Shown: positions 1 to 31,600 of the stretch, in pieces
How positions within the stretch are numbered: the first letter of the stretch is position 1
Layout of the letters: each line of letters begins with the position of its first letter
IMG/VR virus record: IMGVR_UViG_3300024239_000003
Span: 1-62,411 of that record
Source: a virus
Direction: 5' to 3' (one strand)
Length of the DNA: 62,411 nucleotides
The notes under the pieces: generated by a model
What the model was told of the DNA's origin: nothing
What the model saw: only the letters and a program-made list of their open reading frames with translations
Databases searched by the model: none
Position numbers and translations under genes: made by a program

Positions 1-127
1 CTGGCATTGGCGGTCAGGTCCTCGGCGAAGGGTACGCAGTTGAAGTCTTTGGCCATGCGGACGATGTGGCGCTCTGCGGCGCGGCGGCCTTCCGCCTTCT
101 CGATGGCGATGATTTCCCTGGCGGCCT
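1..127. repeat. Terminal overlap, copy 1 (identical to 62285..62411)
   Basis: Read directly: the first 127 nt (ctggcattggcggtcagg...ccctggcggcct) are also the last 127 nt of the window. This implies a circular or circularly permuted molecule. Confidence 0.97.
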
Positions 128-149
128 CGATGTGATCGAACTGTTCCAT
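1..149 (-). CDS. Hypothetical early protein, 5' end (same gene as 61903..62411; it wraps the circular junction)
   Basis: ATG at 149 (minus) preceded by GAGAGGTAGCAGC. It reads MEQFDHIEAAREIIAIEKAEGRRAAERHIVR in frame into MAKDFNCVPF, the start the ORF track gives at 62340. Confidence 0.75.
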   Translation of the reverse strand, partial: MEQFDHIEAAREIIAIEKAEGRRAAERHIVRMAKDFNCVPFAEDLTANA

Positions 150-201
150 GCTGCTACCTCTCGGTCGGTTGCTGTCCGGCATTGCTTGCCGTGTTGAGAT
201 C

Positions 202-230
202 ATCTTAGGTTAGCGTTAGAACTAACGCAA
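202..230 (-). promoter_or_regulatory. Candidate sigma70-type early promoter: TTGCGT, 17 nt, TAAGAT (minus strand)
   Basis: In the only AT-rich patch upstream of the minus-strand early operon. -35 is at 225-230 and -10 at 202-207, with an exact 17-nt spacer. Confidence 0.4.
213..228. promoter_or_regulatory. Operator-like palindrome GCGTTAG-AA-CTAACGC
   Basis: Perfect 7-2-7 inverted repeat lying in the spacer of the candidate early promoter. Confidence 0.5.
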
Positions 231-365
231 TCATAAGAAGTAGAAACCCGACGAACGGTAGTATTTAAATTTGCAAATCTGTATCGGGCTGGCAGATACT
301 TCGCTCCACCAGCTCACCTGCTGGACCAGTACAGCCTGGAAAGACGGGCGGACAGCCGGAGAGAC

Positions 366-424
366 GGCCCGATCACCTCCCACGGCTCCTGGCGGAAAAC
401 GGGAGGCTGCATCGGAAAGAGGGC
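366..424 (+). ncRNA. Hairpin module X1 (GGCCCGATCACCTCCC...GGGAGGCTGCATCGGAAAGAGGGC)
   Basis: Helix CCGAT(369-373)/ATCGG(411-415) stacked on CCTCCC(376-381)/GGGAGG(401-406). The flanks are conserved with X2. Confidence 0.4.
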
Positions 425-828
425 GGCCCGTGCAAAAAGCTGAGCAGGGCGCACGAGCAATGCGAACGGCCGGACGCAGTGCGCCATAGCTGTCAGGTTC
501 CCTCTTTCCAATGCAGAACATGGCGAAAGCCGGAAGTCTGAAAGCCAGCCACCCATGAGGTGCTTTCTGCGGTCCCCAATGCTGGATAGGGCCGCCCCCA
601 AGGGTCACGGGGAGAGTGTTGCGGAACGCCGGTCCAACAAGCAGACCTTAAACCCAGGCGTGACGGCTCGGAGAGACGAGCACTGAACAATGCAGCACCC
701 GCCGTTCGGGCATGAGCAGCAGCGCGGGAGCTTCACGAGTGGCACGACACGATCCCGTTGGTCTCATGCGGATGCGGGTGGAAACAGCGCCAGACCATGG
801 CGATACCCTGGCAAGCCGGTGGAAGTCC

Positions 829-884
829 GGCCCGATCACCTCGCCATCCCCTCGGGTAAGCTGGCGAGGCTGCATCGGAGAGGG
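829..884 (+). ncRNA. Hairpin module X2 (GGCCCGATCACCTCGCCA...TGGCGAGGCTGCATCGGAGAGGGC)
   Basis: Same flanks and outer helix as X1 (CCGAT 832-836/ATCGG 874-878). The inner helix is CCTCGCCA/TGGCGAGG, with a C:G to G:C swap relative to X1. It abuts tRNA-like element 1. Confidence 0.4.
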
Positions 885-985
885 CAATGGGTAGCTCAGC
901 GCGGTAGAGCAGCGAGCGCAAGCGGTCATGAACGCGAACGCTCATCCCCCCATGCAGGTCGCGGGTTCGACCCCCGCCTCATTGC
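885..985 (+). ncRNA. tRNA-like element 1 (34-nt anticodon-loop region instead of 7)
   Basis: Acceptor CAATGGG/CTCATTG, U8-A9, D arm GCTC-AGCGCGGTA-GAGC, variable loop AGGTC, T arm GCGGG-TTCGACC-CCCGC. Between GCGAG(912-916) and CATGC(951-955) lie 34 nt that can fold into an extended hairpin with loop GTCATGAA. Confidence 0.55.
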
Positions 986-1003
986 CTTCCCCGATGCAGA
1001 TGT

Positions 1004-1178
1004 ACCCCACTCGTCCAGTTGGTCAGGACACCATGAACCGGAGCGCCGAGGATCGCCGCCGACCTTGCACAGCGGCGGAAGGATGCGGAGCGAAGGGTAG
1101 TGTCAGGATGTTGCGTAAGTGCTGCGCAATTGAATGCCGCGAGCCGTGGAGACCGTGGTTCGATCCCACGGTGGGGCG
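1004..1178 (+). ncRNA. tRNA-like element 2 (109-nt insertion where the anticodon loop should be)
   Basis: Acceptor ACCCCAC/GTGGGGC, D arm GTCC-AGTTGGTCA-GGAC, anticodon stem CCATG(1031-35)/CGTGG(1145-49), T arm CGTGG-TTCGATC-CCACG. Bases 1036-1144 replace the 7-nt loop and contain hairpins plus AAGGATG and CAGGATG. Confidence 0.5.
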
Positions 1179-1383
1179 CCTAATCCCCGTCAACTCACTC
1201 CGGGGGCCGGCTCTGAGGCGAAGGAAGCGCCAAGGAGTAACGACGTGGAATTGCCCGCCATCGGCGCAAGGGCATGCTGGCGGGTAAGCCGCCCTTGAAA
1301 TTCTAGAGGTTGACGCCGGCAATCATGGCCAGAGGTCGAGGGCCGGCGCCTGACTTATCAGTGATCCAGCTCACAATGGGCGA

Positions 1384-1683
1384 TCACTTCGTATCAGACA
1401 GGCGATCCCCCGGCGGGGGCGTGCAGTCAGAGCGCAACGCTATCACATGCGCGACCGCGCCAGCTCTCGACCACACGTAGGCTTTCCACAGCGACACATC
1501 GTACAGTTCCACTCCGGCCAAGCGACAGGCATCTTCAAGAGCGCCACGCCAGCCCACATATCCCAGGTCAACCTCGACCGCGTCGGGAGGAACCTGGGGC
1601 TCCCCCGTGATGCGCTCGGTGTCTTGGAACCGGAAAACCCCGTTCCCCATCTCCACCACGGTGAACTCGATAGCCGTTTGCAC
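1384..1683 (-). CDS. Hypothetical protein (99 aa)
   Basis: Protein-like composition (MQTAIEFTVVEMGNGVFRFQD...). Isolated minus-strand gene between the RNA locus and terS. Confidence 0.7.
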   Translation of the reverse strand: MQTAIEFTVVEMGNGVFRFQDTERITGEPQVPPDAVEVDLGYVGWRGALEDACRLAGVELYDVSLWKAYVWSRAGAVAHVIALRSDCTPPPGDRLSDTK

Positions 1684-1696
1684 TATATCCGCTCCG

Positions 1697-1712
1697 TTTT
1701 TACAATCGAAAC
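1697..1712 (+). promoter_or_regulatory. AATCGAAAC motif site (TTTTTACAATCGAAAC)
   Basis: Member of the recurring motif family. Lies 60 nt upstream of terS. Confidence 0.4.
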
Positions 1713-1772
1713 AGTCACGCCTGAATCACCATCTCAGGCGATTCGTCAATACCGGAGTCGGATCAACGAGTT

Positions 1773-2531
1773 ATGCCCACGAAGCGCGCGCAAGATGCAG
1801 CGGCATCCCCGAAGAAACCCAGGCCCCTGACGCCCAAGCAGCAGGCTTTCGTGGACGAGTATCTCGTTGACATGAATGCAACGCAGGCGGCCATCCGCGC
1901 GAAATACAGCGCCAAGACCGCAGGCCAGATCGGCGAGAAGCTGCTGAAAAAAGCTGAAATCGCCCAGGCCATCGAGGCAGCACGCAAGGAGCTGTCTGCA
2001 CGGACGCAAATCACGCAAGAAATGGTGCTCAAACGCTGGTGGGAGATCGCCACCGCTGACCCGAACGAGCTGATCCAGCATCGCCGCGTCTGCTGCCGGC
2101 ATTGCTATGGCCGGGACCACGCCTACCACTGGAAGGACGAGGCCGAGTACGAGCGCGCTTGCGACAACGCCGCGAAGGATGACCGCGAGCCGCCCAGCGA
2201 CGAGGGCGGATACGGCTTCGACCCGACCCTGCCGCCGCATCCCAGGTGCCCGAAGTGCTTCGGCGAAGGGCACGGCGATGTATTCGTGGCCGACACCCGC
2301 CACCTCGGCCCGTCAGCCCGAGCGCTCTACGCCGGCGTGAAGGTCACGAAGGAAGGCTTGGAGATCAAGATGCAGGACCAGGGCAAGGCCCTGGAGAACG
2401 TCGCGCGCCACCTGGGCATGTTCAACGACAAGCTGACCCTGAAGGGCGACGCGGAGAACCCGATTGCGCTGCTGCTGCAACAGGTCTCCGGCGCCACGCT
2501 GAAGCCATCCGGCCAGGGAGGCGATCAGTGA
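1773..2531 (+). CDS. terS: Terminase small subunit
   Basis: N-terminus PKKPRPLTPKQQAFVDEYLVDMNATQAAIRAKYS is the typical Terminase_2/P27-type small-subunit HTH. Sits upstream of terL. Confidence 0.9.
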   Translation: MPTKRAQDAAASPKKPRPLTPKQQAFVDEYLVDMNATQAAIRAKYSAKTAGQIGEKLLKKAEIAQAIEAARKELSARTQITQEMVLKRWWEIATADPNELIQHRRVCCRHCYGRDHAYHWKDEAEYERACDNAAKDDREPPSDEGGYGFDPTLPPHPRCPKCFGEGHGDVFVADTRHLGPSARALYAGVKVTKEGLEIKMQDQGKALENVARHLGMFNDKLTLKGDAENPIALLLQQVSGATLKPSGQGGDQ

Positions 2532-2722
2532 AGCCAGGGCTGCGCGATCTTTTCGGCGCCCAGGTACAGCGCCGCGCAGGCCAGGGCCGTGCGCTTGCTT
2601 ATCTCGGTCTTCCCCGTCTCCATCGCCCTGTAGGCGTTCTCGGTCATGCCGAGGGCGGCCGCCGCGCGCCGTTTGCTGAGCTTCATGGTGCCGCGCCACG
2701 CGGCCAGTTCTTCGGGCTTCAC
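2525..2722 (-). CDS. Small HTH (XRE-like) DNA-binding protein, antisense between terS and terL
   Basis: 65 aa with GTG start. LSKRRAAAALGMTENAYRAMETGKTEISKRTALACAAL is an HTH pattern. The 3' end overlaps the terS stop by 7 nt. Confidence 0.65.
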   Translation of the reverse strand: MKPEELAAWRGTMKLSKRRAAAALGMTENAYRAMETGKTEISKRTALACAALYLGAEKIAQPWLH

Positions 2723-2956
2723 TCCACCACCACCATAAAATGCGCTATTGGAGCCGGGAATATAGCTCAGTTTCTGCGCTTTCGCGCGTCGCTACGTGAA
2801 ATCTGGCCACCAGCGTGGGGGATTGCCCAGCGCTTTTCGCGTAGGAGCGGGCTGCTGGCCTGCCGCCTGGGCTTTCATCGCCATCAGTTCCGAGAGGAGC
2901 GCGACATCCGCGTCCAGCTCATCACCGGCGGCGAGCCACTGACCATCGGCGAGGAG

Positions 2957-3052
2957 ATGCGCTGGAGCTGCAAGCGATGCGGCGTGACCTTGCTGGTCGC
3001 TCGCTGGTTCAAGTCGGCGCACCACCGGCGAGTGTGGGAGATGCTTCAGTGA
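2957..3052 (+). CDS. Possible small Cys-containing ORF translationally coupled to terL (start uncertain)
   Basis: The frame ending at TGA 3050-3052 overlaps the terL GTG as GTGA and has strong G/C third-position bias from about 2822. The only canonical start is ATG 2957 (MRWSCKRCGVTLLVARWFK...), and its SD abuts the ATG. Confidence 0.3.
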   Translation: MRWSCKRCGVTLLVARWFKSAHHRRVWEMLQ

Positions 3053-4620
3053 GCGCCCGCGTCGGCATCGACCTCGACTTCCGCCCGAACACGCCCGAGG
3101 AGCTGGCGGCCTGCCTCGCTGATCCATGGTGGCGCCTGTGCTCCGGCGCCCTGTACAAGATCATCGTCAAGACCGAGGGCGATGGCGAGGACGGCCTGGT
3201 TCTCCCGTTCCGTCCCAACCGCGCCCAGCGCCGCCTGCTGAAGAACCTGCACACGCGCAATCTGATCCTGAAGGCGCGCCAGCTCGGTTTCACGACGCTG
3301 ATCGCGATTTTCTTCCTCGACTGCGTTCTGTTCCGGGCGAACGTGCGCGCCGGCATCATCGCCCAGGACCGGAGCGCGGTGGAGACGATCTTCCGCGACA
3401 AGGTGAAGTTCGCCTACGACAATCTGCCGGACGCCCTGCGCGAGGCCATGCCGCTCGCCGTCGAGAGCAAGACCGAGCTGCTGTTCGCCCACAACAACAG
3501 CAGCATCCGCGTCGGCACGTCCATGCGCTCCGGCACGATGCACTACCTGCACGTCTCCGAGATGGGGAAGATCGGCGCCAAGTTCCCCGAGAAGGCCAAG
3601 GAGGTCGTCACGGGCTCCATTCCTGCCGTGCCTGATGACGGCATGCTGTTCATCGAGAGCACGGCCGAGGGCCAGGAAGGCGAGTTCTACAACCTCGCCA
3701 TGCGCGCCAAGCGGCTGGCGGACGGCGGCAAGCGCCTGACCAGCAAGGACCTGAAGTTCCACTTCTACCCCTGGTGGGGCGAGATGACGTATCGCTCCGA
3801 CCCGGACCTCGTGGTCATCACCCAGCGCGAGCACGAGTATTTCGACGAGATCGAGGCGAAGACAGGCGCCGTGATCGACATCGAGCAGCGCGCATGGTGG
3901 ATCGACACGCGCGACAGCCTGTTCTCCGGCCAGGACGAGAAGATGTGGCAGGAGTACCCGTCCACCCCGGACGAGGCGTTCAAGAAGTCGCTCGAAGGCT
4001 GCTACTACACCCGCCAGATCGTCGCCGCGCGCAAGGAGCGCCGGATCGGCGTCGTGCCCTACATGCCCGGCTATCCGGTCAATACCTACTGGGACATCGG
4101 CGCCGGCGACGGGACCGCCATCTGGTTCCATCAGCACATCGGCCAGCAGCATCGGTTCATCAAGTTCATGGAGGGCTGGGGCGAGCCGTACTCCTACTTC
4201 GTCGGCCAGATGCAGGCGCTCGGCTGGGTTTGGGGCACGCACTACCTGCCGCACGACGGCGCGCACATCCGCCAGGGCATGGACGCCAACCTGTCGCCGC
4301 GCGAGCAGTTGGAGAAGCTGGGGCTGAAGAACATCGAGATCGTTGACCGCGTGCAGGAGCTACAACACGGCATCCAGGCAGTCCGCGACATCTTCCCGGC
4401 CTGCTGGTTCGACGAAGAAGGCTGCAAGGAGGGCATCGCTCACCTTGAGCTGTACCGCAAGAAGTTCAACACCACGACGCAGACGTTCACCGACCAGCCG
4501 CTCAAGGACATCCACACCGAGGGCGCCGACAGCTTCCGGCAGTTCGCCCAGGGCTACAAGGTCGTCAACGTCCGCGCCGGGCAGCGGCCGAAGCGGAAGG
4601 TCAGCGCGAGGGCTGTTTAG
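3049..4620 (+). CDS. terL: Terminase large subunit
   Basis: The ORF track gives 2977..4620. Coding-type codon bias begins at GTG 3049, preceded by GGGAGA. Large ATPase/nuclease-sized protein between terS and portal (…LILKARQLGFTTL…MLFIESTAEGQEGEFY…). Confidence 0.88.
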   Translation: MSARVGIDLDFRPNTPEELAACLADPWWRLCSGALYKIIVKTEGDGEDGLVLPFRPNRAQRRLLKNLHTRNLILKARQLGFTTLIAIFFLDCVLFRANVRAGIIAQDRSAVETIFRDKVKFAYDNLPDALREAMPLAVESKTELLFAHNNSSIRVGTSMRSGTMHYLHVSEMGKIGAKFPEKAKEVVTGSIPAVPDDGMLFIESTAEGQEGEFYNLAMRAKRLADGGKRLTSKDLKFHFYPWWGEMTYRSDPDLVVITQREHEYFDEIEAKTGAVIDIEQRAWWIDTRDSLFSGQDEKMWQEYPSTPDEAFKKSLEGCYYTRQIVAARKERRIGVVPYMPGYPVNTYWDIGAGDGTAIWFHQHIGQQHRFIKFMEGWGEPYSYFVGQMQALGWVWGTHYLPHDGAHIRQGMDANLSPREQLEKLGLKNIEIVDRVQELQHGIQAVRDIFPACWFDEEGCKEGIAHLELYRKKFNTTTQTFTDQPLKDIHTEGADSFRQFAQGYKVVNVRAGQRPKRKVSARAV

Positions 4621-22660: not shown

Positions 22661-25600
22661 GTGGCAAAAGCACCGCTGTCGCCGCTCGAAAAGGTATTGT
22701 CGGAAGCCCCGTCCCAAGGTCTGCCGGACTTCCAATTCAACGCTACGGAGCGGCAGCCATCGGCTTCCAGCTCCGCCGCGCCGACCGAACTGATGCCGAT
22801 GTTCGAGCAGTCGGCGGTCAAGTACAACGTCCCGGTCAACGTCCTGCTCGCGCTCGGCGATCAGGAGTCGAGATTCAACCCGCGCGCGCTCGGCCAGCCT
22901 ACCAAGTGGGGCCGCGCCAAGGGGCTGATGCAGTATCTCGACAGCACCGCCGCGAACCTGGGGATCAACCCCTACGACCCGGCTCAGTCCATCGACGCCG
23001 CCGCGCGCCAGATACGCGAGCGTCTGGACAAGGGTTACTCCATGGAGGACGCGGTCAAGGAGCACTTCGCCGGCCCGGATCGCCGCCAGTGGGGGCCGAA
23101 GACCGCCCGCTACGGCGAGGAGGTCATGGAGAAGGTCGCAAAGTGGGGCGGCCAGTTCCAGCCGACCGGCGCCGCCGTTGCGTCCGGTGCGCCGGATCGC
23201 GCGGGCGCAGTTGCCGAACTCCAGAAGCAGCTCGATGCCGAGGAAGAAGGTCGGTACACGGCGCTTACGCCGGATCAGGTCGAGCGTTACCAGCGCCGCG
23301 CGGCTATGATGCAGGGCGATGCGCTCGCCGCCACCCAACCGTTTGTTCAGGTCAGCGCGCCGTCGCCGCTCACCATCGAGAACCAGCAGCGCCAGCAGCA
23401 ACAGCAGGCCGAGGCTCAGCCGTCGCCGCTCACCCTGGAGAACCAGAACCGTCTGGCCGCCGGCCTGCCGCCGAAGGACACCCGCGAGTATCAGGGTTTC
23501 CTCGAAGCCACGGGAGCATCGCTGGAAAACGTGCCCGAGCGCTTCCAGCAGTCGATTGCCGGCCTGATCCAGATGGCAGGCGAGGACCTGGGCCTGGAGC
23601 GCGAGCGCTTCATCGCTGACCGCGCGCGCCAGTACGGCATCACCCCCGGCGACATGAAGCTGCTGGCCTGGGCCGGCAACGAGAAGCTGATCGATCCGAA
23701 GACGCCGATCCCCGAGGCGCTGAAGACCGTCAAGCAGAACATCGCCCAGTCGCTCAACGAGCAGCAATTGAGGCAGCTCGACGCCGCCGGCATCATCAAC
23801 CCGAAGGAGATTTCGGCCTTCGCGCGTGACTGGCGCGAGCAGACAAAGAAGACCATGGTCGAGGTCCGCCCCGAGCCGGAGAGCATGGCCTACTACGGCA
23901 GCGCCGCCATTGGCTCGCTGGCCGAGATGGCGCCGATGCTGGCTGCTGCCGTCGTCACCCGTAATCCGCGCATCGCAACCGCCATCATGGGCGGTCAGGT
24001 GGGTGGTCAGGCCTACGCCACCGGCCGAGAGAGCGGCCTGAGCGAGGAGCAGGCGCAGACCTATGCCCTGCTGACTGCCGCCGCCGAGGCCGCGCCCGAG
24101 GCGCTTGTTCTCGGACGCCTGCTCAAGCCCGGCGCCGGCATCATGAAAAAGGCGCTCGAAGGCACCGTCTTGGAGGGCGCTCAGGAGGCGGTGACTGCCG
24201 CGCTCCAGGCTGGCATCGACAAGGGCTACATCAGCCCCGACATGACCTTGAAGGAAGCGCTGGTACAGGTGCGCGACAGCGCCATCATCGGTGCCATGAC
24301 CGGCGGCGCCTTGGGTGGCACGTTCGCCGGCGCCGAAAAGCTGACCAGCCGCAAGCCGGCGGAGCAGCGCGAGCGCATCGAGCCTACCGTCAGCGAGGAC
24401 GGCGCCACCCCGTCCGCCCAGCCGGCAGCGACCACTCCGGCCGCCCAGGCTGAAACGACCCCGGCCGCCGAGGCGCCGCAGGAAATCCAGGCCGCTCCGC
24501 CCGCGCCGCAGCCGGAGCCCCAGCCTGCACCGCAACCCGCTCCCCAGCCAGCACCGCAGCCGGAGCCGTCCGGCCAGCTCGGTCGCGCGCTCCAGAACGC
24601 CATGCCCGGCCGCGCCGAGGAGAGTGCCGCCGATGGTCAGCGCGTTGCCCTGATCGCCGAGGGCCTGGAGCCGATCACCGGCGCCGTGGTCTCCGAATCC
24701 CCGGACAGCCTGATGGTGCGCGGCGATGACGGCCAGAGCTACGAAATCACCCGCGACGAGATCGCCTCCGGCGCCGTCTCTGTGATGCCCGAGGAGCAGC
24801 TTGCCGCCCAGCAGGCCGCCGCGCCCGCTCAGGAACAGCAGGCCGCCCAGCCGGTCGAGGAGCCGGCTCCGGCGGAGCAGCAGGCCGAGCAGCAGGTCGA
24901 GCAACCGCAGTTGTTCGCCGAAACAGAACAGGCGGCTCCTATGTCCGAGCCCGCTCCCGAGGAGCGCAAGCCCGCGCGCACCTACGAGGAGATGGACGAG
25001 CCCGAGCTGCGCGAGCGCTTGAAGTACCTCGCCGGTCAGGCGCGCAACTCCGGCGGCTGGAACAAGACGCTCATGCAGGAGCGCCGGAAGATCGAGAAGG
25101 CCATCGAGGCGAAGAAGGCCGAGGCCGCCCCGGTCGAGCAGCCGGCCGTCGAGCCTGCGCCCGCCGTCGAACAGCCGACCGCCGAGCAGCCGGCCGCCGA
25201 GCAGGCGCCCGTCAAATGGTTCGGCAGTCGCGAGAAGGCCGATGCCTTCATCACCAAGAAGAAGCTGTCCGACAGCCACGAGGTTGTCGAAGCCGGCCGC
25301 TCGCGCTTCGAAATCCGCGAGAAGGCGCCCAAGGACGGTTGGGAAGACGTGCCCGGCTTCACCGACCGCAGCCGAAAGGAGGTCATGGACGCCGTCGTAG
25401 ACATGCGGAAGTTCAATCCAGGCATGGAGTTCCGCACCAAGGCAGTCGATGGAAAGCTGATCATCCAGAAGCGCAAGGCGCCTGCCGAGCAAGAGCAGGC
25501 CGCCCCGGCGCCTGCCGCGCAGCAGGAGCAGCCAAAGACCTCCGGCCACATCAACCGCGCCCGCAAGCTGATCGGCGCCGAGGTCGGCGATACCATCGTT

Positions 25601-28600
25601 CCGTCCGCCGATGTCGGCTATGCCTCCGGCGGAAAGCCCTACGTCATCGAGCGCATCGAGAAGAACGGCGAGGTCGTCGTCCGCAATGCGGAAACGAACT
25701 CCCGGACCAACCTGAGCCGGGCCGAGCTGGAGCGCGCCCGCCGCGCCGGAGTTACCTACGCCAAGCAGCAGGCCCTGGAAGAAGCCGGCGGCGACATGCG
25801 CGGCCAGGACATCAACAGCGAGTGGTCCGCGTTCGCGCCGGAGTCCGGCACCCTGAGCGTGCCGCGAGCCGAGATGCCGCAGATCAAGGCCGAGCATCGC
25901 GGCGCCATGGTCAACTTCCTGAACGCGCGCGGCATCGAGCACGAGGAGCAGACCGTCCCGGCCGACAGCCTGAAGCCGACGCAGGCGGAGTTCTCGCCCT
26001 CGAAGGTCGCCCAGGCGAAGGAGTTCACCGGCGGCGACCGCGCCATTCTCGTCTCCAGCGACGGCCATGTGCTGGACGGCCATCACCAGTGGCTCGCCAA
26101 GCGCGACGCCGGCGAGGACGTGCGCATCATCCGCCTGGACGCGCCGATCCGCGACCTGCTGCCGCTCGTGCATGAGTTCCCCAGCTCCACTCAGGCCGAA
26201 GGCGCATCTTCTGCTGCGCCGAGTGTTGCGAAAGCGGAAACTCCATCCGCAAAATCTGAACAGATCAATATCACCGTCGATGATGGCCTGATGCCGCGTG
26301 ATGACATGGCAAGAATCCAGAGCCGCGCCGGTGTTGAGGCATTCGCAATTGGCAGCGATCCAGAAACTGGCGCCGTTAAATTCAAGCGCGGCATGGAGTA
26401 CGGCGACTACAACATCAATCGTCTCGACACGAGCGGCGACTTCTACTCTCGTGAGGCATCCGCTAAGTTCAAGAACGATGGAACCTATCGCGTAGAGTTC
26501 GACGACGGCCGCGACCCGATTTCTGGAACATTCGACAAGGGCAACTACGTCGATAGCATCGTTGAGATATTGAAGCCGATTGCTGATGCTGTTCCGCGTG
26601 TAAACCGCTTCACTGGGAAACCAGTCGCAACCAAAGCACCTACCGCAGCGCCAAGCAAGGCGTCGCCAGCCGTCAGCGAGAACAAGGTCTTCACCGAGGA
26701 CGCCGCCGAGAAGGCCCGCGCCCTGCTGCGCTCGAAGCTGACCCAGCTGAACAGCGGTATTGACCCGGAGATCATGCAGGCCGGAATCACCCTGGCCGGC
26801 TACCATATCGAGAAGGGCGCGCGCACCTTCGCGGCCTATGCAAAGGCCATGGTCGGCGACCTGGGCGATGTCGTTCGCCCCTACCTGAAGTCGTGGTATA
26901 TGGGCGTGAAGTACGACCCGCGCGCCGCCGGCTTCGACGGAATGAGCACGGCGGCCGAGGTCGAAACTTTCGACGTGGACGCCCTGAGCGAGGAGACCCC
27001 GAATGAACCTGAACAGTTGGATCAGCCAAGCCAGGGAGCACTGGAAGGAGCACCTGCCGAACCGGTACAAGGAGCTGCAAGCCAAGAACCAGCTCGGGAA
27101 CGCCCTGCGCGGAGCAGCGGAGCGGACGCACGCCGAGATGAGCGAGCTGGAAGCGGCCGGGATGACGACGCACGAGGCCTGGGAAGCGACGAGGGAGCTG
27201 TACCTGTTCCCGCCGCAGGAGCAAGCCGAGACGGACGAGGCGGCGACCGGAGCGCTGTTCAACGAGGCGATGCAGGTAATCCAGCCCGATCCCGAGGACG
27301 GGGTGGTCGAGAGCCGCGCGGCGTAACACCGTCGCTGGGCGTCGTCGCCGAGCAGCGCCCTGCGAACTACACCATCACCGAGGCCGACGAGATCGGCCAG
27401 GGCGGCGCCAAGACCAAGTACCGGAACAACGTCGCCGCGATCCGGCTGCTGAAGCAGTTGGAGACCGATGGCCGCGCCGCTACCGCCTCGGAGCAGGTGG
27501 TCCTGGCGAAATACGTCGGCTGGGGCGGCATTCCGCAGGCCTTCGAGCGCAGCGACGGCAGCGCCAGCAAGGGCTGGGATAGCGAAGTCGCCGAGCTGAT
27601 GGGCCTGCTGACCGCCGAGGAATACCGCGCCGCCGCATCCTCCTCGAAGAACGCCCACTACACCGCGCCGGAGATCGTGCGCGCGATGTGGGGCGCCGTG
27701 GCCCGCCTGGGCTTCAACGGCGGCCGGGTGCTGGAGCCGTCTGTCGGCGTCGGCAACTTCTTCGGCCTGATGCCGCACGAGCTGCGCAAGGCTGCCGCGC
27801 TGAACGGCGTTGAGCTGGATCGCGTTACCAGCGGAATCGCCACCCAGCTCTACCCCGAGGCGAAGATCGCCCGCATGGGCTATCAGGACTACCTGATCCC
27901 TGACGGTCACTTCGATGTCGCCATCGGCAACCCGCCGTTCGGCCGCGAAAGCCTGTACGACGGGCGCCGCAAGGACCTGAGCGGCTTCAGTATCCACAAC
28001 TATTTCTTCGCCAAGAGCCTGGACGGCCTGCGCCCCGGCGGCGTGCTCGCCATGGTCGTGACCAATCGCATGATGGACGTGCCGGGCGACAAGGCGCGCC
28101 GCTACATGGCCGACCGCGCCGACTTCCTGGGCGCGATCCGCCTGCCGAACGACGCCTTCATGGCGAACGCCGGCACGTCCGTGACCACGGACATCATCTT
28201 CATGCGCCGCCGCGCCGAGGGCGAGCAGCCCGCCGGCGAGAGCTGGATGGAGGTGCGCGACTACACCGACAAGGACGGCAACACCGTCCCGCTGAACGAG
28301 TATTTCCACCGCCACCCGGAAATGATGCTCGGCGACTTCGGCGCCTACGGCTCCATGTACCGCGACGGCGAGCCTGCCCTGGTCGCCCGCGAGGGCCAGG
28401 ACACCCAGGCCGAGCTGACGCGCGCCATCGGCCGCCTGCCCGAGGGCGTCATGACCCAGTCGGCGCCGGTGAAGCCGGAGACCGCCGAGACCGTGCGCGC
28501 CGAGAACGTGCGCGTCGGCTCCATGTTCCTCGACGGCGACACCGTGAAGGTGCGCGGCGACGACGTGCTGGGCGAGAACACCGCCGAGGCTGTGACCTTC

Positions 28601-31600
28601 CCGAACGAGAAGGCCCGCGAGCGCGTCGTCGGCATGATCGGTATCCGCGACGTGCTGGCCCGCCTGCGCGGCCTGCAACTGGACCCGAGCGCCACCGACA
28701 AGCGGATCGAGGTCGCCCGCAAGGAGCTGAACGCAGCCTATGATGCCTTCGTCAAGGCGAACGGCCCGATCAACCTCGATGCCAACAAGCGCCTGTTCCG
28801 CGACGATCCGACGTGGCCGCAGCTCTCCGCCCTGGAGGACAACTTCGACAAGGGGCTGTCCGCCGCCATGGCGAAGAAGACCGGCGAGGAGCCGCGCAAG
28901 CCGAGCGCGCAGAAGGCCGCGATCTTCAGCAAGCGCACCCAGCAGCCGTATCAGGCGCCGACCAGCGCCGCGTCGGCGAAGGACGCCCTGGTCGCCAGTC
29001 TCGCCGAGACCGGCCGCGTAGACCTCGACCTGATGAGCGAGCTGTACGGCAAATCGCCCGACACCATCGTCAAGGAGCTGGGCGACCTCGTCTTCCGCGA
29101 CCCGGTGAAGGGCTACGTCACCCGCGACGAGTACCTGAGCGGTAACGTGAAGGCGAAGCTGGCCCAGGCCCGCGAGGCGGCCAAGAGCGATCCGGCATTC
29201 GCCGCGAACGTCGATGCCCTGGAGGCTGTGCAGCCTGCCGACATCGAGGCCGTGGACATCAACGTCAAGCCCGGCGCGCCGTGGGTTCCGCAGGAGACCA
29301 TGGCCGAGTTCGCCAACCACATCGCCGAGGGCAGCCGTGCCCGCGCGATCTACAACCCGGCGACCGCGAAGTGGTCGTTCCTGAACGTCGATGCCACCAC
29401 CGCAGCCGACCAGCGCTTCGCCACCGGCCGCGTCACCCTGACCGGCATCCTCGAAGCCGCGGCGAACCAGAAGACCCTACAGGTCTACGACTCGCACCCG
29501 GACGGCAGCCGCACCTTGAACGAGGGCGAAACCCAGCTCGCTAACGACAAGGTGAACGCGGTCAAGGAGGCTTGGGATCGTTGGGTTTGGGCGGATGATG
29601 CCCGGCGCGAGCGCCTGGGCCGCATCTACAACGACACCTACAACACCAACGTCGCGCGCGACTACGACGGCTCGCACCTGACATTCCCCGGCAAGGTCGG
29701 CGACGACATCATTTCCCTGCGCCCTCACCAGGGGAACGCCGTGTGGCGGATCGTGCAGGCCGATACGACCCTGCTGGATCACGTCGTCGGCGCCGGCAAG
29801 ACCTTCACCATGGTCGCCGGCGCGATGGAGCTGCGCCGCATGGGCCTCGCCAAGAAGCCCATGTTCGTGGTGCCGAACCACCTCGTCAGCCAGTGGGCCG
29901 CCGACTTCACCAAGCTCTACCCAGGCGCCAACGTGCTCGCGGCGAACAAGAAGGACTTCGAGAAGGAGAACCGCAAGCGCCTGTTCGCCCGGATCGCCAC
30001 CGGCGACTGGGACGCGGTGATCGTCGCGCACTCCAGTTTCGGCAAGGTCGAGGTGGAGCCGCACGAGCAGGCCGCATTCATTCAGGAGCAGGTCGATGAC
30101 CTCGACGCCTCTATCGAGCTGATGCGTCTGGTAGACGGCAAGAACAGCCGGAACGTCAAGGAGACGCAGAAGCGCCGCGACGCCTTGCAGGAGAAGCTGA
30201 AGAAGCTGATCGACGCCGACAACAAGGACGACAGCCTGTACTGGGGCGAGCTGGGCGTGGACGCCCTGTTCGTGGACGAGGCGCACGAGTTCAAGAACCT
30301 CGCGTTCTCCACCTCCATGAACCGCGTCGCAGGCCTGGGCGCGCAGACCGGCAGCCAGAAGGCGGCCGACCTGTTCCTGAAGGTCCGGCAGGTACTGAAG
30401 GCTACCGGCGGCCGCAACGTCGTGTTCGCTACCGGCACGCCGATCAGCAACACCATGGCCGAGATGTACACCATGCAGCGGTATCTCGACTATGTGAACC
30501 TGAAGGGCCAGGGCCTGAGCCACTTCGACGCCTGGGCGCGCATGTTCGGCGAGGTCGTGACCGACTGGGAGCTGTCGCCGTCCGGCAAGTACAAGATGAA
30601 CAGCCGGTTCGCCAAGTTCGTGAACATGCCGGAGCTGATGCAGCGCTACGGCTCCTTCGCCGACGTGGTGAACCGTGCGGACATCAACCGCATGCTCGCC
30701 GCCCAGGGCAAGAAGCTGCCGGTGCCGAAGGTGCGCGGCGGCAAGCCGGAGAACGTGGTCGTTCCGCGCAGCCAGGACCAAGCCAACTACATCGGCGAGC
30801 CGATCAAGGACGCGGACGGCAACGACACTGACGACTACCCGCGCGGCACGCTGGTATGGCGCTCCGAGAACCTGCCGAAGAAGGCGGAGAAGGGCTCGGA
30901 CAACATGCTGAAGATCATGGGCGACGCCCGGAAGGCCGCCCTGGATATGCGCCTGATCGACCCGAGCTACCCGGACTACGCCGGCAGCAAGGTCAACGAG
31001 GCCGCCGGCCGCATGAAGGAGCTGTACGACCGCTGGCACGAGGATCGCGGCACGCAACTGGTCTTCATCGACCTGTCCACGCCGAAGAACGCCCGTTCCG
31101 CCGAGGCCGAGCGCCTGCGCGACCTCGCCCGCCGGGCCGATGATGGCGACGAGGACGCGGCCGCCGAGCTGGATAAGGTCAGCCCCGACGAGCTGATGGC
31201 CCTGGACGGCGACTTCTCGGTCTACGACGACCTGAAGCAGAAGCTGATCGCCAAGGGCATCCCTGCCGACGAGATCGCCTTCATCCACGATGCCAAGACC
31301 GACCTCCAGAAGGAGGAGCTTTTCGGCAAGGTCCGCTCCGGCCGCGTGCGCTTCCTGTTCGGCTCCACCGCGAAGATGGGCGCCGGCACCAACGTGCAGG
31401 ACCGGCTGGTCGGCCTGCACCACATGGACGCCCCGTGGCGGCCTTCCGATCTGGAGCAGCGCGAGGGGCGGATCATCCGCCAGGGCAACAAGCTGTACGA
31501 GCGTGATCCCGAGGGCTTCGAGGTGGCGATCTTCCGCTACGCCACGAAGCAGACCCTGGACAGCCGCATGTGGCAGACCATCGAGGGCAAGGCCAACTTC

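What the first reader, a model, noticed from the sequence alone, without database searches (positions are those of the whole stretch)
885..985. tRNA-shaped element with a 34-nt anticodon-loop region
All elbow-forming features of a tRNA are present: a 7-bp acceptor with one G-U pair, U8, A14, G18G19, A21, variable loop AGGTC, and T loop TTCGACC with G53/C61. The anticodon stem (GCGAG/CATGC, 4 of 5 pairs) encloses 34 nt rather than 7. Those 34 nt can refold as an extended arm (GAGCG/CGCTC, a 3x3 internal loop, GCG/CGC) capped by an 8-nt loop GTCATGAA. No canonical 7-nt U33-NNN-R37 loop can be recovered by simple excision, and there is no encoded CCA. The insertion is too short for a group I intron and does not form a bulge-helix-bulge. 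It could be a natural tRNA scaffold displaying a hairpin, a decoy for anticodon nucleases or tRNA-targeting defences, an unusual 8-nt-loop decoder, or a decayed tRNA.
Basis: seen in the sequence. Interest (0 to 1): 0.7.

Follow-up and report, generated by a model that had tools for sequence, protein, structure and literature searches.

The report
tRNA-shaped phage RNA on conserved stalk
A Pseudomonas phage carries a conserved RNA that folds like a tRNA but has a long hairpin where the anticodon should be. It sits on a conserved double-stranded stalk that, in related phages, carries at least twenty other small structured RNAs, which points to an undescribed family of swappable phage RNA genes.

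Summary
Window 885-984 has every tRNA elbow feature: a 7-bp acceptor, U8, A14, G18G19, an AGGTC variable loop and a TTCGACC T loop. The anticodon region is replaced by a bipartite arm (GAGCG/CGCTC, a 3x3 loop, GCG/CGC, loop GUCAUGAA).

It is neither a decaying pseudogene nor an intron-containing tRNA. The element recurs in four divergent lineages of Pseudomonas phages. Across them, 17 of 43 base pairs show compensatory changes and 97% of cells are paired. ARAGORN's intron mode gives seven different "anticodons" across the homologues.

The base of this helix, GGCUGYAUCGGAR...CCNAURCAG, is conserved in more than 119 viral contigs. There it carries about 23 unrelated cargo classes of tRNA size (72-95 nt). 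These lie in early operons, about 30 nt upstream of various genes, or inside tRNA clusters. The window holds a second such module at 405-516 and a second tRNA-like element at 1004-1180.

Best reading, with function inferred: a natural tRNA scaffold displaying a hairpin. It is co-transcribed and probably excised by host RNases as a stable, non-decoding tRNA mimic. No Rfam family or paper was found that describes it.

The parts
870..884 (+). 5' strand of the stalk extension (CTGCATCGGAGAGGG). It pairs with 985-999 and is coaxial with the acceptor. A879 faces C990 as a conserved A.C mismatch.
   Evidence: Inverted repeat I1 at 870-889/980-999. The outer helix appears in the MFE and centroid folds. 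Stalk pairs covary.
885..984 (+). tRNA-shaped core (T1): acceptor 885-891/978-984, D arm 894-910, variable loop 956-960, T arm 961-977.
   Evidence: Read directly. ARAGORN -i call at 885-986. Covariation. CM R1 scores 144.9 bits on the + strand and 32 on the - strand.
912..955 (+). Replacement for the anticodon arm. Junction pairs are G912-C955 and C913-G954. The proximal helix is 914-918/939-943, followed by a 3x3 internal loop (919-921/936-938) and a distal helix 922-924/933-935. The loop is GTCATGAA (925-932) with the 6-nt palindrome TCATGA. A length-variable single-stranded linker lies at 944-953.
   Evidence: The proximal helix is 100% paired with 3 compensatory pairs, and the distal helix has U.G variants. 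The rival 5-bp stem is rejected. Loop variants UCCGGA occur in Jeremy and L240.
985..999 (+). 3' strand of the stalk extension (CCTTCCCCGATGCAG).
829..868 (+). Upstream 'frame': GGCCCGATCACC (829-840) and hairpin H (CTCGCC 840-845 with GGCGAG 863-868), directly before the stalk.
   Evidence: The same motif followed by a covarying hairpin precedes stalks in most fetched loci, for example CCCGATCCACC-TGGC..GCCA.
707..840 (+). Upstream structured domain U. It is shared only with the P. putida phages Jeremy and Dolphis.
   Evidence: blastn, sequences, alignment A4 with 9 compensatory pairs in 3 sequences. No IMG/VR match.
405..516 (+). Second stalk module in the same orientation. The stalk is 407-423/500-516 and the cargo belongs to class 1, which has a covarying stem and a likely pseudoknot.
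   Evidence: Exact motif match, sequence, alignment A3, CM R1 hit at 23 bits. The overlapping ORF 231-608(-) has no PHROG family.
1004..1180 (+). Second tRNA-like element (T2). The acceptor is ACCCCAC/GTGGGGC and the D arm is GTCC-AGTTGGTCA-GGAC. The stem CCATG/CGTGG encloses about 102 nt. The T arm is CGTGG-TTCGATC-CCACG.
   Evidence: Read directly. ARAGORN -i call at 1004-1180. It is near-identical in Itty13, with one U.G to C-G change in the stem. The evidence is weak: fold z-score +0.58 and no other homologues.

Best explanation
Window 870-999 encodes a non-coding RNA module on the + strand. A tRNA-shaped body (885-984) has had its anticodon stem-loop replaced by a conserved extended hairpin. 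Its acceptor stem continues into a conserved double-stranded stalk.

Shown:
- It is a structure under selection, read from this strand.
- It cannot be a conventional decoder.
- It is one of many interchangeable tRNA-sized cargos carried on the same stalk in Pseudomonas phages.

Inferred:
- The module is transcribed as part of a longer early or leader transcript. In phage Jeremy it is part of its own promoter-to-terminator unit.
- The stalk and the tRNA shape serve as handles for host processing enzymes. RNase III-type cleavage would act on the roughly 22-bp stalk, and RNase P would cut at G884|C885, 12 bp from the T loop.
- The released, nuclease-resistant L-shaped RNA presents the extended arm as its working end.
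- That arm, with its self-complementary hexaloop, would pair with another copy (a kissing dimer) or bind a partner not yet identified.

This would be a natural version of the laboratory 'tRNA scaffold'.
For: Structure and strand:
- 97.3% of cells are paired and 17 of 43 pairs have compensatory changes. None of 500 shuffles reached this.
- The acceptor is completely different in four lineages yet always paired: CAATGGG/CTCATTG, GTCTAGG/CCTAGAC, AAGCGTG/CACGTTT and CAGTGTG/CGCACTG.
- The T stem changes from GCGGG/CCCGC to GCCGG/CCGGC between the window and the 96%-identical Itty13.
- The Levitt pair is G15:C48 in the window and A15:U48 in Jeremy.
- G.U pairs are tolerated while A.C is not: about 30 to 2 across 76 stalks, and 9 to 1 in T1.
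- The CM scores 145 bits on the + strand and 32 on the - strand.

Not a decoder or an intron:
- ARAGORN -i gives inconsistent calls across homologues.
- The linker varies from 6 to 10 nt.
- No group I or group II intron family reaches its Rfam threshold; the only intron-family match is a weak group II hit (15.2 bits against a threshold of 49, E 2.5).

Stalk family:
They give 76 distinct modules in about 23 cargo classes of 72-95 nt, on stalks of 17-25 bp.
- Class-1 cargo has its own covariation.

Stable-RNA context:
- In L052 the modules sit among genuine tRNA genes on the same strand.
- In Jeremy the region runs from TTGCAT-N18-TACCAT to a GC hairpin followed by a T run (read directly).
- In lambdoid MD8 the module lies inside the leftward early operon.

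Trans-acting or autonomous character:
- The same downstream ParB-like gene is preceded by 4 cargo classes.
- T1 precedes at least 4 different gene families.

Precedents:
- A tRNA-like ncRNA with a 7-bp acceptor closed at its end is cut by RNase P and receives CCA (M. smegmatis YrlA, PMC4201824).
- Loop palindromes: UCAUGA in three lineages (the window, Itty13 and the P. aeruginosa prophages), UCCGGA in two (Jeremy and L240).
Against: - There are no expression data. Transcription, cleavage sites, stability and any partner are all inferred.
- The simple promoter/terminator scan found nothing upstream of the module in the window. It also missed the Jeremy signals that I read by eye.
- With both acceptor ends buried in a long helix, RNase P access is uncertain.
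- The effective sample is four lineages.
- Homologues were retrieved with sequence patterns, so invariance of the pattern columns (GGTAGAGCAGCG, ATGCAGGT, GGTTCGA and the stalk ends) is partly by construction. The covarying columns were not part of the patterns.
- The single-sequence MFE fold reproduces only the stalk, not the cloverleaf.
- The kissing-loop idea rests on just two loop variants.
- Lying about 30 nt upstream of start codons, the module could be purely cis-acting.
Confidence: 0.5

Rival explanations
1. Purely cis-acting intercistronic processing or stability element. The stalk (RNase III) and the tRNA shape (RNase P) only cut the polycistronic transcript. They set the 5' end and translation of the downstream gene or protect the upstream 3' end. 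The cargo has no function of its own.
For: The modules lie between genes of one operon. They sit 30-32 nt upstream of the start codons of ParB-like and other genes and inside the PL-like operon of MD8. The stalks are 17-25 bp with mismatches at fixed positions 7 and 10. From my own knowledge, this resembles the internal loops of the phage T7 early RNase III sites and the lambda N-leader site.
Against: This does not explain why the cargo is conserved and covaries across distant phages: the T1 arm, elbow and Levitt pair and the class-1 helices. It also does not explain the 72-95 nt size limit, or why Jeremy and Dolphis place the RNA in a unit of its own ending in a terminator with no downstream gene.
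Confidence: 0.22
2. Decoy or sponge. The excised tRNA mimic titrates a host factor that recognises the tRNA elbow or anticodon arm, such as a tRNA-cleaving defence nuclease or toxin, a modification enzyme, or RNase P. The alternative cargos are decoys for other factors and are exchanged in an arms race.
For: All elbow nucleotides are intact. Many cargo classes are exchanged at one locus, independently of neighbouring genes. The cargo was swapped between the 96%-identical window and Itty13. The location is among accessory early genes of temperate phages.
Against: No anticodon loop of any real tRNA is preserved, and the loop changes from UCAUGA to UCCGGA. No defence or anti-defence gene is consistently linked. 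There are no functional data.
Confidence: 0.15
3. DNA-level element: a miniature inverted-repeat mobile element or recombination cassette. Its terminal inverted repeats (GGCTGCATCGGAG / CTCCCCGATGCAG) are bound by a recombinase, and the RNA fold is incidental.
For: The conserved ends resemble terminal inverted repeats and flank variable interiors. There is clear cassette exchange with breakpoints at the conserved stalk base.
Against: The G.U versus A.C asymmetry is strand-specific. Covariation occurs inside the cargo, far from the ends. tRNA tertiary positions are conserved. The orientation always matches the flanking genes. No target-site duplication is visible in the flanks. No transposase is linked.
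Confidence: 0.07
4. A functional tRNA whose 27-nt (T1) or 102-nt (T2) insert is an intron. The intron is removed to give a decoding tRNA, as in ARAGORN's Gly(CCC) and Ser(CGA) calls.
For: ARAGORN -i calls both elements at default thresholds. The Rfam tRNA model passes its gathering score on the Jeremy copy, 34.9 against 29 bits.
Against: Predicted anticodon, intron size and intron position differ among 15 homologues, giving 7 identities. In the window the 'anticodon loop' would be C-U-CCC-C-C, with a pyrimidine at position 37. It lies in a linker that varies from 6 to 10 nt. The 'intron' is the most conserved, covarying part. No group I or group II intron family reaches its Rfam threshold. No CCA is encoded. 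From my own knowledge, no bacterial splicing route is known for such short inserts.
Confidence: 0.03
5. A decaying tRNA pseudogene with no function.
For: Default ARAGORN and Rfam do not call it in the window. There is no CCA.
Against: It is conserved in four lineages of unrelated phages, with 17 compensatory pairs and 97% pairing. The insert is the best-conserved segment.
Confidence: 0.02

Closest known systems
YrlA / bacterial Y RNAs (Rfam RF02553; Chen et al. 2014, PMC4201824)
   Same: A non-coding tRNA mimic with authentic D/T elbow nucleotides and no decoding function. It has a long terminal helix, occurs in bacteria and phages, and has a kinked or altered 'anticodon' stem. One member is an RNase P and CCA-adding enzyme substrate.
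   Different: YrlA is circularly permuted: T arm, then a closed acceptor hairpin, then the D arm, with the ends leaving through the anticodon-side stem. This is visible in the model consensus. In T1 the order is native and the ends leave through the acceptor. The YrlA model scores 15.7 bits against a threshold of 69, and only by bridging T1's T arm to T2's D arm. The paper itself warns of this dimeric-tRNA artefact. No Ro60 gene is annotated near the locus in Itty13.
Engineered 'tRNA scaffold' for recombinant RNA expression (Ponchon and Dardel 2007; from my own knowledge)
   Same: The anticodon stem-loop of a tRNA body is replaced by a hairpin of interest, so that the chimera folds, is processed and resists nucleases. 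This is the same architecture as 885-984.
   Different: T1 is natural, lacks CCA, and has an acceptor extended by 15 bp. Its processing has not been shown.
tRNA-like processing modules fused to other RNAs: mascRNA at the MALAT1 3' end, and MHV68 TMERs (tRNA-like joined to pre-miRNA hairpins) (from my own knowledge)
   Same: tRNA-shaped, non-aminoacylated units embedded in longer transcripts. They recruit RNase P or RNase Z to define ends and release small stable RNAs. TMERs are viral.
   Different: Those are in eukaryotic hosts and lack a conserved stalk. Their hairpins follow the tRNA rather than replacing the anticodon arm.
Phage regulatory RNAs matured by RNase P from leader transcripts: P1/P7 C4 RNA and P4 CI RNA (from my own knowledge)
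   Same: Small phage RNAs cut out of early or leader transcripts by tRNA-processing enzymes. Their exposed loops act by base pairing.
   Different: There is no Rfam C4 match. No complementary target for the T1 loop was identified. Those RNAs lack a full D/T elbow.
Intercistronic RNase III sites of phage T7 early mRNA, the lambda N-leader and sib hairpins, and rRNA processing stalks (from my own knowledge)
   Same: Helices of about 20 bp with internal mismatches, placed between cistrons or flanking a stable RNA that is then released.
   Different: The stalk base here is sequence-conserved across unrelated phages, and the top carries a tRNA-sized folded domain. Cleavage has not been tested.
GOLLD and ROOL large phage-associated RNAs (Rfam)
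   Same: Ornate phage-borne non-coding RNAs that lie next to tRNAs or enclose them.
   Different: There is no Rfam match at the gathering threshold or at E up to 10. The modules here are about 115-135 nt.

Membership tests
Canonical bacterial/phage tRNA | 7-bp acceptor, D arm with G18G19, T arm with the TTCRA loop, and a 12-bp acceptor/T stack | tested here: met
   Read. Kept in all 12 aligned homologues.
Canonical bacterial/phage tRNA | 5-bp anticodon stem closing a 7-nt loop with U33 and a purine at 37 | tested here: not met
   The candidate 5-bp stem is 68% paired, and its 4th pair never forms. The region forms a covarying extended arm instead.
Canonical bacterial/phage tRNA | Detection by standard tools (ARAGORN default; Rfam RF00005 at or above 29 bits) | tested here: not met
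   ARAGORN gives 0 genes. There is no RF00005 hit even at E up to 10 on 341 nt. The Jeremy homologue alone reaches 34.9 bits.
Canonical bacterial/phage tRNA | Free 3' end with CCA, encoded or added, and aminoacylation | not testable with these tools
   No CCA is encoded in any lineage (CCT, CAC, GAA, CGC). The ends are paired in the stalk. Addition of CCA would need experiments.
Intron-containing tRNA | A conserved anticodon and intron position across homologues | tested here: not met
   Seven different anticodons, with introns of 13-27 nt at positions 34-41.
Intron-containing tRNA | A recognisable self-splicing intron core | tested here: not met
   No group I or group II intron family reaches its Rfam threshold; the only intron-family match is a weak group II hit (15.2 bits against a threshold of 49, E 2.5). 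The insert is 27-34 nt.
YrlA (Y RNA-like) | Match to RF02553 at or above 69 bits, with the permuted order T arm - acceptor hairpin - D arm | tested here: not met
   15.7 bits, spanning two adjacent elements. T1 has the native order.
YrlA (Y RNA-like) | Encoded next to a Ro60 (TROVE) gene | tested here: inconclusive
   No such product appears among the 26 features annotated in the 14 kb around the Itty13 locus. The window's proteome was not scanned for TROVE domains.
tmRNA | A tRNA-like domain together with a tag reading frame | tested here: not met
   ARAGORN tmRNA search gives 0. No Rfam tmRNA family matches.
RNase III processing hairpin | About two turns of dsRNA with internal distortions, cleaved by RNase III | not testable with these tools
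   The geometry fits: 17-25 bp, with mismatches at positions 7 and 10. Cleavage is untested.
MITE / DNA cassette | Terminal inverted repeats with a target-site duplication and no strand bias | tested here: not met
   Inverted ends are present. No duplication is seen in the flanks. The G.U to A.C bias is about 30 to 2.
Stalk-borne cargo RNAs of Pseudomonas phages (family defined here) | The stalk base GGCUGYAUCGGAR...CCNAURCAG, enclosing a 72-95 nt cargo on a 17-25 bp helix, on the same strand as flanking genes | tested here: met
   Window 868-999 and 405-516.

The most novel reading that the evidence does not exclude
The conserved stalk defines a previously unrecognised class of phage accessory RNA genes ('RNA morons'). 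These are tRNA-sized folded RNAs displayed on a common processing stalk in early transcripts of Pseudomonas phages. They are swapped as cassettes between phages and are under diversifying selection because each cargo targets a different host factor or defence. T1 would be the tRNA-mimic allele, acting as a decoy or as a self-pairing (kissing-loop) particle.
Probability: 0.3. Interest if true: 0.85.

Novelty: new variant of a known kind. Interest (0 to 1): 0.72.

Why it matters
If correct, phages use the tRNA fold as a chassis to make and stabilise small functional RNAs, the same approach engineers adopted in 2007. They also trade such RNAs as cassettes on a common stalk.

This would add a family of at least twenty unannotated structured RNAs to well-studied temperate P. 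aeruginosa phages, including MD8, LESphi3, phi2, JBD88b and Ab31. It would explain long 'empty' intergenic stretches and some spurious ORF calls, such as Itty13 gp32.

It also offers a tractable system, with culturable phages and hosts, for asking what non-decoding tRNA mimics do during infection.

For annotation, intron-mode tRNA finders will mislabel these elements as tRNAs with arbitrary anticodons.

Tried and rejected
- Standard detectors were negative in the window: ARAGORN default, Rfam at gathering score, and Rfam at E up to 10 over 1-3000 and 860-1200.
- Weak Rfam hits were examined and dismissed. The twister-sister hit at 782-868 (21 bits against 34) pairs with a segment that is not conserved in Jeremy or Dolphis. 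The group II D1D4 hit reflects only a GGUGGAAGUCC hairpin. The snoRNA hit is on the wrong strand. The YrlA hit is a dimeric-tRNA artefact.
- A protein-coding reading of ORFs 690-1100(+), 928-1287(+) and 231-608(-) found no PHROG family.
- The apparent small ORF 'ATGAAAAAAGC' in class-1 cargos is not conserved as a start codon; the window has GTGCAAAAAGC.
- The genome-contig scan gave one irrelevant coding-sequence hit.
- The pattern for domain U found nothing in IMG/VR, and the pattern for T2 found nothing.
- One IMG/VR scan was wasted on a mis-spaced pattern. The corrected pattern added only ordinary tRNAs.
- The simple promoter/terminator scanner found no signals around the module.
- A full-text search for the stalk sequence found only an unrelated aptamer paper. 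Searches for a prior description found none.
- I looked by eye for a target complementary to the T1 loop near downstream start codons and found nothing convincing.

Full report
**What the window is.** The first 8 kb match Pseudomonas phage Itty13 (Ittyvirus) at 95.7% identity. They match the terminase-portal region of phages such as Burkholderia Bcep22/DC1, Serratia Parlo and Klebsiella SopranoGao more distantly. In Itty13 the stretch corresponding to window 609-1490 carries no annotated feature. It lies between leftward small genes and the rightward terS gene. terS in the window is at 1773-2531 (phrog_51).

**Checking the observation.**
- The acceptor is 885-891/978-984, with one G.U pair.
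- U8, A14, G18G19 and A21 are in place.
- The variable loop is AGGTC (956-960).
- The T arm is 961-977, with loop TTCGACC and a closing G-C pair.
- There is no CCA.

Default ARAGORN and Rfam find nothing. ARAGORN in intron mode makes exactly two calls in the 62-kb window, at 885-986 and at the adjacent 1004-1180, both on the + strand. Shuffled windows give 0.3 calls on average.

**Conservation elsewhere.** The element recurs in several places.
- In Itty13 it sits about 200 bp further upstream within the same intergenic region.
- It is in the temperate P. aeruginosa phages Shamal and Haboob, at 87-88% identity over the element only.
- It is in 22 IMG/VR prophage-type contigs.
- It is in the 95-kb P. 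putida phage Jeremy, as a divergent copy.
- It is in a soil metagenome contig, L240.

These make four sequence lineages. I aligned 12 distinct copies (A2) and scored a structure made of the cloverleaf, the extended arm and the outer helix. In that structure 97.3% of cells form standard pairs and 17 of 43 pairs have changes on both sides. None of 500 column shuffles reached these values, and sliding the 3' partners dropped pairing to 26-47%.

The acceptor sequence differs entirely among lineages yet always pairs. The T stem has a G-C to C-G swap between the window and the otherwise 96%-identical Itty13. The arm GAGCG/CGCTC becomes GGGTG/CACCC in Jeremy and GAGCC/GGCTC in L240. The tertiary 15:48 pair is G:C in the window and A:U in Jeremy.

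Only its outer two pairs survive as a junction.

One caveat applies. Homologues were fetched with sequence patterns, so invariance of the pattern columns is partly by construction. The covarying columns were not constrained by the patterns.

**Not a tRNA with an intron, and not a pseudogene.** ARAGORN -i fits a Gly(CCC) tRNA with a 27-nt intron in the window. On 15 homologues it returns Leu, Trp, Ser, Arg, Pyl, Met and Gly, with introns of 13-27 nt at positions 34-41. The window's supposed anticodon lies in a single-stranded linker (944-953) whose length varies from 6 to 10 nt among copies. The supposed intron is the most conserved and covarying part. No group I or group II intron family reaches its Rfam threshold; the only intron-family match is a weak group II hit (15.2 bits against a threshold of 49). 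Decay is excluded by the compensatory changes.

The acceptor helix continues outward. C870-G884 pairs with C985-G999, giving a 22-bp helix with one conserved A.C mismatch at A879/C990.

I searched IMG/VR for the stalk base alone, using GGCTGYATCGGAR, 90-120 nt, then CCNATRCAG. After removing duplicates there are 76 distinct stalk-bearing modules.
- Stalks are 17-25 bp.
- Positions 11-22 covary freely.
- Positions 7 and 10 are usually mismatched.
- G.U outnumbers A.C by about 30 to 2 elsewhere in the stalk, so selection acts on an RNA of this strand.
- The enclosed cargo falls into about 23 unrelated classes, all of 72-95 nt.

The tRNA-shaped cargo (T1) is one class. The commonest class has its own covarying stem and a second complementary segment pair that takes three different sequences (GCAATC/GATTGC, GCCAACT/AGTTAGGC, GGCGCAC/GTGCGCC). 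This suggests a pseudoknot.

The same stalk is present, unannotated, in known temperate phages including MD8, TC7, phi2, LESphi3, JBD88b, phi1, Ab31 and YMC11/02/R656, and in P. syringae phages. All hosts named are Pseudomonas.

**Context.**
- In lambdoid MD8 the module lies inside the leftward early operon, between gp49 and a ParB-like gene. It is about 1.5 kb downstream of an operator-flanked promoter.
- Across loci the module is co-oriented with its neighbours and ends 30-32 nt before the next start codon.
- Cargo and neighbour assort independently. The ParB-like gene (HTH_ParB) is preceded by four cargo classes, and T1 precedes at least four gene families.
- The window and Itty13 carry different cargos at the same slot, with breakpoints exactly at the conserved stalk base.
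- In contig L052 two stalk modules sit among genuine tRNA-Met, Asn and Trp genes on the same strand. A further tRNA-like gene there is itself embedded in a CCATCGGGAAC.../...GTTCCCGATGG helix.
- In Jeremy the region reads, by eye, as its own unit: TTGCAT-N18-TACCAT, then domain U, a hairpin, the T1 stalk, about 150 nt more, then GCCCGC-CGAGT-GCGGGC followed by a T run.
- In Dolphis the unit ends right after domain U.

**Other modules in the window.** The window itself holds several more, all on the + strand, upstream of terS.
- A second stalk module lies at 405-516.
- Domain U lies at about 707-840.
- A second tRNA-like element, T2, lies at 1004-1180, four nucleotides after the T1 stalk.

**How it most likely works.**
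- Shown: a selected RNA structure of this strand, a tRNA elbow kept intact, no usable anticodon, and membership of a stalk-with-cargo family.
- Inferred: the module is co-transcribed with early or leader RNA. The roughly two-turn stalk and the 12-bp acceptor/T stack then recruit RNase III-type and RNase P-type processing.
- Inferred: a compact, nuclease-resistant L-shaped RNA is released, which displays the extended arm.
[quoted passage not shown] From my own knowledge, also the engineered tRNA scaffold, mascRNA, and the TMERs of murine gammaherpesvirus 68.
- The loop of the arm contains a 6-nt palindrome, UCAUGA in three lineages (the window, Itty13 and the P. aeruginosa prophages) and UCCGGA in two (Jeremy and L240). 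The two central bases changed together. This is compatible with loop-loop self-pairing, but two variants are thin evidence.

What the RNA does after release is unknown. A cis-only processing role, a decoy for tRNA-binding factors, and a DNA-level cassette are listed as rivals with their tests.

**Comparison with known families.** The nearest in kind is YrlA, a tRNA-mimicking non-coding RNA found in bacteria and phages. YrlA is circularly permuted and Ro60-linked, and its model scores 15.7 bits against a threshold of 69 here, and only by bridging T1 and T2. T1 fails the defining anticodon features of a tRNA and the consistency test for an intron-containing tRNA. No tmRNA, C4, GOLLD or ROOL match appears in the Rfam results, and twister-sister gives only a weak sub-threshold hit (21.1 bits against 34). 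Full-text searches found no description of the stalk sequence or of such elements.

**Verdict.** The element belongs to a larger, apparently undescribed family of stalk-borne structured RNAs in Pseudomonas phages. Function remains inferred.

Noticed in passing
window 405-516 (+): A second module with the same stalk base (GGCTGCATCGGAA...CCAATGCAG). It carries the commonest cargo class, with the motifs A-rich CNUGNAAAAAGC, GCGAA and GGACG, a covarying stem, and a probable pseudoknot helix GGCGCAC/GTGCGCC. It overlaps ORF 231-608(-), which is annotated as hypothetical gp32 in Itty13. That ORF has no PHROG family, so the call is probably spurious.
   Followed up: partly
window 1004-1180 (+): A second tRNA-like element (T2), 4 nt after the T1 stalk. 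The body resembles tRNA-Glu, with D arm TCGTCCAGTTGGTCAGGACACC, T arm CGTGGTTCGATCCCACG, and discriminator G followed by CCT. About 102 nt are inserted in the anticodon loop. ARAGORN -i calls it Ser(cga). It is found only in the window and Itty13, and its fold energy is unremarkable (z +0.58).
   Followed up: partly
window ~707-840 (+); L004 2514-2650; L005 2500-2632: A structured domain of about 135 nt ('U'): GGCATGAGCAGC..GGCACGACACGA..CTCATGC..GGAAACAGCGCCAGACC..CCGGTGGAAGTCCGGCCCGATCACC. It is shared only with the P. putida phages Jeremy and Dolphis. In those phages it starts just after a TTGCAT-N18-TACCAT promoter-like site, and in Dolphis it ends at an intrinsic terminator. GCATGAG/CTCATGC becomes GCATTAG/CTAATGC in Dolphis. 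It has no Rfam family and no IMG/VR match.
   Followed up: partly
window 868-999 versus L001 (Itty13) 3707-3836 and 3971-4106: The two 96%-identical phages carry different cargos in the same slot, T1 in the window and an unrelated 90-nt cargo in Itty13. Itty13 has T1 in an upstream slot where the window has domain U. Identity breaks exactly at the conserved stalk base, which indicates recent cassette exchange.
   Followed up: partly
window 829-840 and the equivalent positions in most stalk loci: The motif GCCCGAUC(C)ACCU(C), which precedes almost every stalk, resembles the 3' end of 16S rRNA (GAUCACCUCC, the anti-Shine-Dalgarno region; from my own knowledge). The stalk's 5' strand contains a Shine-Dalgarno-like GGAG. 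Whether this is meaningful is unknown.
   Followed up: no
Flanks of stalks in many loci, e.g. L004 2808-2830 and L079/L083/L084 downstream; also inside cargo classes such as L040 and L050: Two further recurring hairpins appear both outside stalks and nested inside some cargos: (AU)GAAUGCGCAGGCUGAUGCGC and GCCGG-AGAUCAGCA-CCGGC, the latter often followed by CAUCUGCA. This suggests a modular 'grammar' of RNA parts.
   Followed up: no
L148, L150, L135/L137/L145-type and L142/L149-type IMG/VR loci: Other, unrelated phage tRNA-like genes have an intact 5-bp anticodon stem enclosing hairpin inserts of 27-50 nt, for example GCGGA-AAA-hairpin-UACCUAA-UCCGC. They are not on the CAUCGG stalk. tRNA bodies displaying inserts may therefore be widespread in phages.
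   Followed up: no
L052 612-720 (-): A gene that ARAGORN calls tRNA-Ser(act) is embedded in a stalk-like helix, CUCCAUCGGGAACCUG.../...CAGGUUCCCGAUGGAG. It lies in a phage tRNA cluster that also holds two stalk modules and an HU-like gene.
   Followed up: partly
window ~195-300: A probable divergent promoter/operator region lies between the leftward gene (start near 150) and the rightward RNA array. It contains the palindrome TTAGCGTTAGAACTAACGCAA. The simple scan found only one sigma-70-like site, at 1677-1706, just upstream of terS.
   Followed up: no
L003 (phage Haboob) 4235-4411: An RT-15 RNA (Rfam RF03018, 155.6 bits) lies immediately upstream of an annotated RNA-directed DNA polymerase. 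It is about 1.7 kb downstream of Haboob's T1 module and appears to be a separate RT-associated ncRNA system.
   Followed up: no
window 22661-37000 (+): A 4779-aa open reading frame.
   Followed up: no
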